Shown in pieces: positions 56,819-58,424 of a stretch of DNA of 64,000 nucleotides. Origin of the DNA: Ginglymostoma cirratum. Taxonomy: Eukaryota. The stretch is taken from assembly GCA_024137785.1 (NCBI GenBank), contig JAHRHZ010000133.1:22316792-22380791 (forward strand), in the 5' to 3' direction. The notes below the pieces were generated by a model that had not been told where the DNA came from, made no database searches, and saw only the letters and a list, made by a program, of their open reading frames with translations. The position numbers and the translations under genes were made by a program. Numbering within the stretch: the first letter of the stretch is position 1; each line of letters opens with the position of its first letter.

Positions 56819-58424
56819 GCAAGTCCCAAGTAGTAACTATATTCAAGTCCCGCAGGCACAAATCCTCATCAAGTTATTCTTCAGGAGTCCCTTCACCTGG
56901 TAAATAAACCTGGCTGCTTGGCATTCTGGAAAGGCTTTTGCTCCAGAATCCCAAAGCAGGGAGCAATCTTGCTAAATTGGTGCCAACTGAACTTTCCCAC
57001 CCTCACTTTCCAGAGGCTGCTTTATTTCTGTTGGTATTAGTAATTGGGCAAACATCCTTACAGCATATAAAGCTTGTTCAGTGGGTACTGCTACTGACTC
57101 ACTGGTTGTCTTTCTCAGCCACTATTGCTTTCCTTACTGCTCACAACCCCTTGGTGAATGTGCTTGCTTATTTTCAGCAACATTGCTACTTATCAACATT
57201 AATTAAAGCTATGGGTTACTTTAAAGAAAAATGTTAAAGTTCAACTAAATGGATTTGCAGTTAACAGCCGGTTGGATGAAACATCAAGGAACACATTTTG
57301 CTCCGTTCAATAATTGCACCAGAAAAAAGACATGAGACTAGGCAGTGTTCATGACTATACTATCATGGCCTATTTTTCCCAAACTTAATCACTGGGGGAA
57401 GACATAGCCCCTACATTCTTGTTACCTTTGTTTTATTGAAAATTGTAATTGGTGTGATGTTATATTTTCCAAGTTAACACCTATTGTAAAATAGCTGAAA
57501 ATTAATTTGACTTTTTAAAAAATTGGCTTATTTATAATTTTTAAACAAAAGACATGTTCAGCTGACTATAGAATTGTGTCCTTCTGCATTGACTTGAGAA
57601 AAGCTTTATTGAAGTTTTGATACTGAATCACACTGCTTTGATTTTATGTTGATACGCACCTGCTGCTTTCCTTCAATTTATAAAATGTTATTTATTCATG
57701 GGAATTGTGTACAATGAGAAGAGCTTATTTCTCTGTTGGGATCAGGATGATAGTGTAGAGTGAAATGAAACAGAAGACAGAGCGCTACAATGGTCAGAGA
57801 GAGCTCTGATTTTACTTGACAGATTAAAAATTTAATCTCATTGTTGTACAATAAAGATTAGTGAATTTGAAATCATGCAAGAATAATTTCTGTGCTCCCT
57901 GTGCTGATGGCACTGGCTCTAGCTGTGGTTTAGACCTACAGGTGATACTTGAGTGCCTTGCCCAAGAGTCTTTCTTTATTTGTGAGTCTATAGAAGGTAT
58001 TCAGGTATCAGACATCGCAGCCAAACTGCATGCTTTCCCATTACCCACATTCAACATAAACATGTTATTTTCACCTTCTTCCAAGTTCAGGAATGCTAAA
58101 GCCATTTGTGTTACCTCTTGCTTGGCTCAAGTAAGCTACCTCAGCACAAGCTGTAGTGGTTGAACCGTTAAGAGAAATAAAAAGGAAAATGTTTAAATAT
58201 CTTTTTAAAAGAACTACTTAAATGGGCACAGGACTGGGACACAAGGCTGATGCCATGGCCAGGTAGCTATTCCCTGTGCTGTAATTTTGCAAGTCTATGG
58301 AGCTGGGCTACTCAAGTCCAGCAAGTTCAGTCACATAGTACAACATTTGCTTAATCAGTGAAAAAGTTGAGGAGCTGCTTACAGAATTTACTTTTGGTCT
58401 CCATAATATTACATTGTTGCACAA

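What the first reader, a model, noticed from the sequence alone, without database searches (positions are those of the whole stretch)
56819..56908. Hidden in-frame extension behind the GC donor: alternative GT donor, stop and polyA signal in 90 nt
Seen: reading through the GC donor stays open for 29 codons (GKSQVVTIFKSRRHKSSSSYSSGVPSPGK*). Exactly 81 nt downstream is a same-phase donor CTG|gtaaat (GT at 56900), and the stop TAA (56905-07) overlaps AATAAA (56903-08). Inference: three products are possible, namely the normal splice, a 27-aa basic/Ser-rich insert after the homeodomain, or an intron-terminated protein that keeps DNA binding but lacks the activation tail (possible dominant negative). 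I recall a similar GKS...PGK tail in predicted Meis1 isoforms but cannot verify it here. If true, the switch predates the paralog split.
Basis: partly seen in the sequence, partly recalled or inferred. Interest (0 to 1): 0.75.

Follow-up and report, generated by a model that had tools for sequence, protein, structure and literature searches.

The report
Known optional Meis2 exon extension
This 81-base stretch is the already described Meis "exon 10-prime", an ancient piece of coding sequence between two in-frame splice donors that likely adds 27 predicted-disordered residues behind the DNA-binding domain in a minority of transcripts, while the proposed truncated product is likely a by-product of the donor motif.

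Summary
In detail: GC donor at 56819, 29 open codons, in-phase GT donor at 56900, TAA overlapping AATAAA. The gene is MEIS2 of a likely cartilaginous fish. The extension is not new. It is exon 10' of Irimia et al. 2011 (PMC3140891): ancestral coding sequence, optional through an upstream (often GC) donor since early bilaterians, rarely included in vertebrates, repeatedly lost. I confirmed homology to cnidarian and hemichordate Meis (21/27 identical to Saccoglossus), retention in this genome's MEIS1 paralog (78% nucleotide identity against 23% in the next intron stretch), loss in MEIS3, and shark and ray MEIS2 models that splice it to exon 11. The insert is predicted disordered. The switch therefore predates the paralog split by far. 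The third product (stop plus poly(A) signal, dominant negative) is the only new claim and is weakly supported. The stop follows easily from the donor motif, the hexamer lacks a U-rich downstream element (rank 56 of 65), and it is absent in teleost Meis1. For it: both paralogs here share it, and teleost Meis1 models do end in this intron. No RNA reads of this species were examined. Verdict: already known.

The parts
27856..27932 (+). MEIS2 exon 9 (numbering of Irimia 2011), homeodomain middle part
   Evidence: translation and boundaries
56760..56818 (+). MEIS2 exon 10, recognition helix and end of the homeodomain
   Evidence: helix 320-345 in the model of the close homolog P0002
56819..56824 (+). 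upstream GC donor; matches the U1 complement at all positions from -3 to +6 except +2; likely the major donor
   Evidence: same GC donor in MEIS1 paralog L002, GT in MEIS3 paralog L003
56819..56899 (+). exon 10', 81-nt optional in-frame extension encoding a 27-aa basic, Ser-rich insert
   Evidence: PMC3140891
56900..56905 (+). downstream GT donor, mismatched to U1 at -2 and +5; likely the minor donor
   Evidence: homolog models splice here to exon 11
56903..56908 (+). AATAAA hexamer overlapping the read-through stop TAA (56905-07) and the donor; weak poly(A) context
59181..59291 (+). exon 11 with two in-frame acceptors (59181 and 59202, 21 nt apart)
   Evidence: 21-nt extension described in PMC3140891
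59592..59687 (+). exon 12a, stop TAA 59648-50 (A-type C-terminus)
61972..62258 (+). coding part of exon 12b, stop TAG 62256-58 (B-type C-terminus)
63335..63340 (+). AATAAA in the 3' UTR with a T-rich downstream stretch (51% T, rank 3 of 65); likely the gene's regular poly(A) signal

Best explanation
The stretch is Meis exon 10': two in-frame 5' splice sites flank 81 nt of ancestral coding sequence, the upstream GC donor likely wins in most transcripts, and occasional use of the downstream GT donor likely inserts 27 predicted-disordered, basic and Ser-rich residues directly behind the homeodomain's recognition helix. Shown here: both donors, the open frame, homology to cnidarian, hemichordate, tardigrade, nematode and mollusc Meis, retention in the MEIS1 paralog and loss in MEIS3. 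Taken from the literature: very low inclusion in vertebrates and at least six genomic losses. Inferred: the GC donor arose inside the Ala-Gly-Lys-Ser codons of a once constitutive exon; the insert would tune DNA binding, nuclear import or phosphorylation as a short linear motif rather than as a folded domain; in MEIS2 it is under weaker constraint than in MEIS1. The GK-stop is what any unspliced read-through of this phase-1 donor tends to give, and such transcripts would most likely be degraded or be unfinished pre-mRNA.
For: Description and position match PMC3140891. 29 of 111 homolog hits carry the 27-aa insert spliced to vertebrate exon 11 (one search lists 30; P0079 is a misfiled 12b splice). 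First 14 residues: 14/14 identical between Saccoglossus, Nematostella, Acropora and a tardigrade, 11/14 in the window. Paralog pair: 63/81 nt identical, same GC and GT donors, dN 0.19 and dS 0.53. MEIS3 has a GT donor and no extension, as the paper reports. Of 25 cartilaginous-fish MEIS2 models seen, 12 contain 10' (8 in frame), 12 use the short form, 1 lacks exon 10, and none ends in GK-stop. Three Mobula birostris models join a frameshifted 10' to exon 11, which protein homology would not predict and so likely reflects transcript evidence for the distal donor (inference). U1 duplex energy -7.4 for the GC donor against -5.3 kcal/mol for the GT donor. Residues 348-384 of P0002 have pLDDT below 50.
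Against: No RNA reads of this species were examined, so use of the distal donor here is inferred from relatives' predicted models. The codon signal is modest: differences at codon positions 1/2/3 are 4/6/8 with 9 non-synonymous and 6 synonymous codons of 27, against 0/0/7 in exon 10, so part of the conservation may be at the nucleotide level. 4 of 12 cartilaginous MEIS2 models with 10' are frameshifted or stopped. None of 4 protein sequences listed for mouse Meis1 long-read isoforms contains 10'. Homolog sets were selected by similarity to the insert, so conservation is overstated. No function of the peptide has been tested in the papers I saw.
Confidence: 0.8

Rival explanations
1. Intronic polyadenylation: the AATAAA inside the distal donor lets cleavage factors compete with U1, making 10' a composite terminal exon and giving a MEIS2 with PBX-binding domain and homeodomain but no activation tail.
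For: Both paralogs in this genome have the same nine bases after the donor although the intron beyond is unalignable. GK-stop read-through recurs in MEIS1-type and MEIS2-type gene calls. 10 of 15 listed members of a teleost Meis1 cluster read through 10' and end within the intron without exon 11. PMC3140891 reports recurrent C-terminal truncation elsewhere in Meis genes.
Against: Downstream of the hexamer only 22% T (rank 56 of 65 AATAAA sites; window median 32%), no upstream TGTA; paralog 27%. Seven of the nine shared bases are donor positions that pair with or face U1, leaving two matching A's (chance about 0.1, my estimate). In 8 vertebrate-type read-through hits the frame runs on, mostly GKY or GKW, which excludes both stop and hexamer at that place; the teleost models stop 5-36 residues later, so they are not this arrangement. 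No named full-length protein ending in GK-stop (90% clustering can hide members).
Confidence: 0.12
2. Vestige kept mainly as splicing signal: in MEIS2 the 27 codons no longer give a useful protein; the sequence persists through slow evolution in cartilaginous fishes and overlap with splice-regulatory elements, and inclusion is leakage.
For: dN/dS about 0.36 against 0 in exon 10, weak third-position bias. MEIS2 inserts are further from the hemichordate core than MEIS1 inserts (mean 71% versus 88% over 14 residues; 10 and 17 entries). Frame broken in Mobula birostris and Narcine models. Lost in MEIS2 of zebrafish, Xenopus and mammals and stopped in chicken according to PMC3140891.
Against: Exact 27-codon length and an identical insert in turtle, duck and wagtail MEIS2, and 22-23 of 27 residues shared with cartilaginous-fish MEIS2 (read from the sequences); dN well below dS; flanking intron fully diverged between paralogs.
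Confidence: 0.3
3. Unproductive splicing: two weak donors slow removal of this intron; retained transcripts hit the stop at 56905, far upstream of later junctions, and are destroyed by nonsense-mediated decay or held in the nucleus, tuning MEIS dose.
For: Both donors are non-consensus; the stop lies upstream of exons 11, 12a and 12b; teleost models covering this intron suggest retained-intron RNA. The 50-nt rule for decay is general knowledge.
Against: It does not explain the amino-acid conservation of the insert. Almost any retained intron contains a stop. No expression data seen.
Confidence: 0.15

Closest known systems
Meis/hth exon 10' (Irimia et al. 2011, PMC3140891)
   Same: Position after exon 10, alternative 5' splice site, upstream GC donor (46% of genes studied there), conserved coding sequence back to non-bilaterians, absent from Meis3, next to the 21-nt exon 11 extension and exons 12a/12b.
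   Different: That study had no cartilaginous fish in its species list and its main text has 0 occurrences of 'shark', 'polyadenylation' or 'intron retention'; an intact MEIS2 copy here fits its tree as the ancestral state.
Predicted 10'-containing Meis2a isoforms of sharks and rays (e.g. XP_043553936.1, XP_059811702.1)
   Same: Same 27-aa insert, 98% identity over the query for the Chiloscyllium model, spliced to either exon 11 acceptor.
   Different: Predicted models of other species; none of the 25 seen ends in GK-stop.
Truncated MEIS isoforms such as homeodomain-less MEIS1D/MEIS1-HdL (PMC3157405, PMC13379096)
   Same: Alternative processing that removes C-terminal parts and can oppose the full-length protein.
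   Different: These lose the homeodomain by exon skipping; the product proposed here would keep it.
Intronic polyadenylation with a composite terminal exon (general mechanism, from knowledge)
   Same: A poly(A) hexamer just behind a weak 5' splice site and an in-frame stop.
   Different: No U/GU-rich downstream element here, hexamer not kept in teleost Meis1, no 3'-end data.

Membership tests
Meis exon 10' | Lies directly 3' of exon 10 of a Meis gene | tested here: met
   exon 11 sequence of MEIS2 type; homologs carry PF16493 and PF05920
Meis exon 10' | Two alternative in-frame 5' splice sites, the upstream one often GC | tested here: met
   GC at 56819, GT at 56900, 81 nt apart; same in MEIS1 paralog
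Meis exon 10' | Peptide homologous to the ancestral post-homeodomain sequence of invertebrate Meis | tested here: met
   21/27 identical to Saccoglossus; core shared with Nematostella, Acropora, Hydra
Meis exon 10' | Lost from Meis3 | tested here: met
   L003: GT donor, 15/81 nt identity, early stop
Meis exon 10' | Low-level inclusion in vertebrate transcripts | not tested
   no reads of this species examined; only relatives' predicted models and the paper's RT-PCR/EST statements
Intronic polyadenylation site | Canonical hexamer | tested here: met
   AATAAA 56903-08; also in L002
Intronic polyadenylation site | U/GU-rich downstream element | tested here: not met
   22% T, rank 56 of 65; GU/UU rank 55 of 65
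Intronic polyadenylation site | Hexamer and stop conserved across orthologs | tested here: inconclusive
   shared by the two paralogs here; excluded in GKY/GKW/GKC read-throughs; for other GK-stop entries only protein was seen
Intronic polyadenylation site | Transcript 3' ends mapped 10-30 nt downstream | not testable with these tools
   needs 3'-end or long-read data

The most novel reading that the evidence does not exclude
The distal donor of exon 10' doubles as a poly(A) signal kept since the MEIS1/MEIS2 duplication, so that U1 and the cleavage machinery compete for the same nine bases; jawed vertebrates, which almost stopped splicing 10' in, would keep it mainly as the tail of a DNA-binding, activation-less MEIS ending in the ancestral basic motif. 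This would answer the 2011 paper's open question why 10' is conserved yet hardly seen by exon 10-11 RT-PCR, which cannot detect such a transcript; teleost Meis1 models ending in this intron would be the same output with a shifted stop.
Probability: 0.12. Interest if true: 0.55.

Novelty: already known. Interest (0 to 1): 0.2.

Why it matters
As found, it adds a cartilaginous-fish MEIS2 example to a published, very old alternative splice event and shows the jawed-vertebrate ancestor had 10' intact in both MEIS1 and MEIS2. The function of the 10' peptide was left open in PMC3140891 and no MEIS chain among the 19 solved-structure matches extends into it, so it remains a small, testable question. 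If the intron-terminated product were real it would be a natural antagonist of MEIS1/2, factors in limb, brain and blood development and leukaemia, and a rare case of a poly(A) signal overlapping both a splice donor and a stop.

Tried and rejected
Open frame as evidence by itself: rejected, 17% by chance. A folded appendage to the homeodomain: not supported, pLDDT below 50 from residue 348 with a 40-sequence alignment (whole-model pTM 0.28, so only local reading). Conserved intron sequence past the distal donor: best local score 40 against shuffle mean 36, maximum 48 of 50 shuffles. Sequencing-run search: no RNA holder listed; two raw-read RNA runs were offered by species label; no reads were examined. 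Second homolog search aimed at full-length proteins ending in GK-stop: 59 hits, 57 already seen, no such named isoform. Literature searches for an intron-10-terminated or polyadenylated Meis isoform (listings and abstract starts only) showed none; subscription papers, including Xiong 2009 and Sanchez-Guardado 2011, were not held or not seen. Earlier scan notes: none by place or words. The exon 11 row of the U1 comparison was off by one base and is not used. Linear-motif readings of the peptide (import signal, kinase sites) are recalled patterns, not tested.

Full report
Observation. All coordinates of the finding check out. Exon 10 runs 56760-56818, a GC donor opens at 56819, read-through gives 29 codons ending in TAA at 56905-07, a same-phase GT donor lies at 56900 and AATAAA at 56903-08. 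The open frame alone is weak: 17% of start positions in the preceding intron stay open for 29 codons, AATAAA occurs about once per kb, and 13 of 49 GTAAAT sites in the window are followed by a stop-making dinucleotide.

Gene and organism. The window holds exons 9, 10, 11 (acceptors 59181 and 59202), 12a and 12b of a Meis gene. Exon 11 matches database Meis2 proteins. The best hits are shark and ray Meis2a (98% over the query for Chiloscyllium plagiosum) and the genome has 4.36 Gb, so the source is likely a cartilaginous fish.

Paralogs. A search of the own genome gave 5 matches. L002 (MEIS1 type) has the same GC donor, an 81-nt open extension, the same GT donor and the same GK-stop with AATAAA. 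L003 (MEIS3 type) has a GT donor and no extension. L004 and L005 are more distant TALE genes (PKNOX-like by my recall). Between MEIS2 and MEIS1 the extension is 78% identical, exon 10 88%, the next 81 intron bases 23%. dN/dS is 0.19/0.53 in the extension and 0/1.06 in exon 10; codon-position differences are 4/6/8 against 0/0/7. So it is constrained, but less than the homeodomain, and the sample is only 27 codons.

Homologs. Of 111 hits (classified, read), 29 have the 27-aa insert spliced to vertebrate exon 11 (the script listed 30; P0079 is misfiled), 2 to a later exon, 9 end in GK-stop, 18 read on into the intron (8 of vertebrate type) and 52 are invertebrate or of other length. The first 14 residues are identical in Saccoglossus, Nematostella, Acropora and a tardigrade; the window matches 11 of 14 and 21 of 27. 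In the 40-sequence alignment the core positions 346-360 are mostly 30-40 of 40 conserved, one 24 of 40, with the caveat that hits were selected by similarity. Among 25 cartilaginous-fish MEIS2 models seen (15 of 52, 9 of 9 and 1 of 1 cluster members listed; clusters chosen because their representative has the insert), 12 have 10', 12 do not, 1 lacks exon 10. Eight of the 12 are in frame; three Mobula birostris models join a frameshifted 10' to exon 11 and one Narcine model stops inside it.

Literature. Irimia et al. 2011 (PMC3140891; I read parts 1-5 of 8 of the text, through the Discussion; figures and supplements were not available) name this region exon 10'. They report an upstream GC donor in 46% of genes, conservation in non-bilaterians, alternative splicing as a bilaterian innovation, very low inclusion in vertebrates (27/27 human and 6/6 mouse ESTs exclude it; detected only with 10'-specific primers and many cycles), loss in all Meis3 and several Meis1/2 genes, and an open question about its function. 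A hemichordate intermediate donor 42 nt shorter, which they describe, shows up in my hits as P0092, 14 residues shorter than P0008. Their main text does not contain 'polyadenylation', 'intron retention' or 'shark'; their supplements, unseen, may bear on this. In mouse cerebellar long reads (PMC13379096; abstract, sections 7 and 8, passages, S2 Data with DNA cells cut) 0 of 4 listed protein sequences contain 10' or end in this intron; three of the seven transcripts have no protein listed. PMC3157405, PMC7985065 and PMC7759197 were seen as passages only and add nothing on 10'. Xiong 2009 was not held and is known to me only as cited.

Mechanism. Shown: two non-consensus donors in frame; U1 duplex energy -7.4 kcal/mol for the GC site against -5.3 for the GT site; the insert starts right after helix 320-345 and is predicted disordered in the close homolog P0002; solved MEIS chains end by residue 345. 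Inferred: the GC donor dominates, the distal donor gives a minor 27-aa-longer isoform, and the basic core acts as a short linear motif next to the recognition helix, affecting DNA contact, import or phosphorylation. In bird, turtle and dog MEIS2 the third residue is Phe instead of Ser, a change compatible with keeping the donor, so the first codons are likely held by the splice site as well as by the protein.

The third product. A phase-1 donor of this type reads Gly-Lys and then a codon starting with T, so a stop is common. The hexamer has a T-poor downstream stretch (22%, rank 56 of 65; the 3' UTR hexamer at 63335 has 51%, rank 3) and the paralog's is 27%. The nine GK-stop hits are eight unnamed gene calls with non-MEIS N-termini and one hypothetical protein; a second search found no named full-length form, though clustering can hide one. 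Read-throughs continuing GKY, GKW or GKC exclude stop and hexamer at this place. In favour: both paralogs here share all nine bases after the donor, and 10 of 15 listed members of a teleost Meis1 cluster end inside this intron after 10', with tails of 5-36 residues; these are predicted models and may reflect retained-intron reads. An exon 10-11 RT-PCR, as used in 2011, would miss such a transcript. Searches for it in print (listings only) showed nothing. I put it at about 12%.

What stays open. No RNA reads of this species were examined, so inclusion level, tissue pattern and any 3' end in the intron are unknown here.

Verdict. Real, correctly read, and already described. Interest 0.2; the poly(A)/donor overlap is the only lead worth a cheap follow-up.

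Noticed in passing
proteins P0080, P0153-P0161 (teleost Meis1/Meis1b models, cluster 5): Ten of 15 listed teleost models read through 10' and end inside intron 10 without exon 11; for several species the name has no isoform suffix. Real lineage-specific truncation or an annotation effect of retained-intron reads.
   Followed up: partly
proteins P0021, P0128, P0130 (Mobula birostris) and P0132 (Narcine): MEIS2 10' is frameshifted or stopped in these ray models while still included; decay in rays or assembly error.
   Followed up: partly
proteins P0046 (dog), P0137 and P0143 (wagtail, duck), P0005 (turtle): MEIS2 10' is still an open 27-codon insert in these models, although the 2011 paper scored it lost in mammals and stopped in chicken; the loss is patchier than published.
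   Followed up: partly
window 59648-59687: The exon 12a stop lies 37 nt before its donor, inside the zone that by the general 50-nt rule escapes nonsense-mediated decay.
   Followed up: no
window 59181-59201: The 21-nt alternative acceptor extension of exon 11, known for Meis2, is intact.
   Followed up: yes
L004 and L005, around 1504-1660: Two more distant TALE paralogs continue the same exon past the homeodomain with a basic stretch and a later GT donor, resembling a constitutive counterpart of exon 10+10'; homology of that stretch not tested.
   Followed up: no
window 27933-56759: Intron 9 is about 28.8 kb, fitting the reported long introns 6-9 of Meis genes; conserved non-coding elements in it were not examined.
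   Followed up: no
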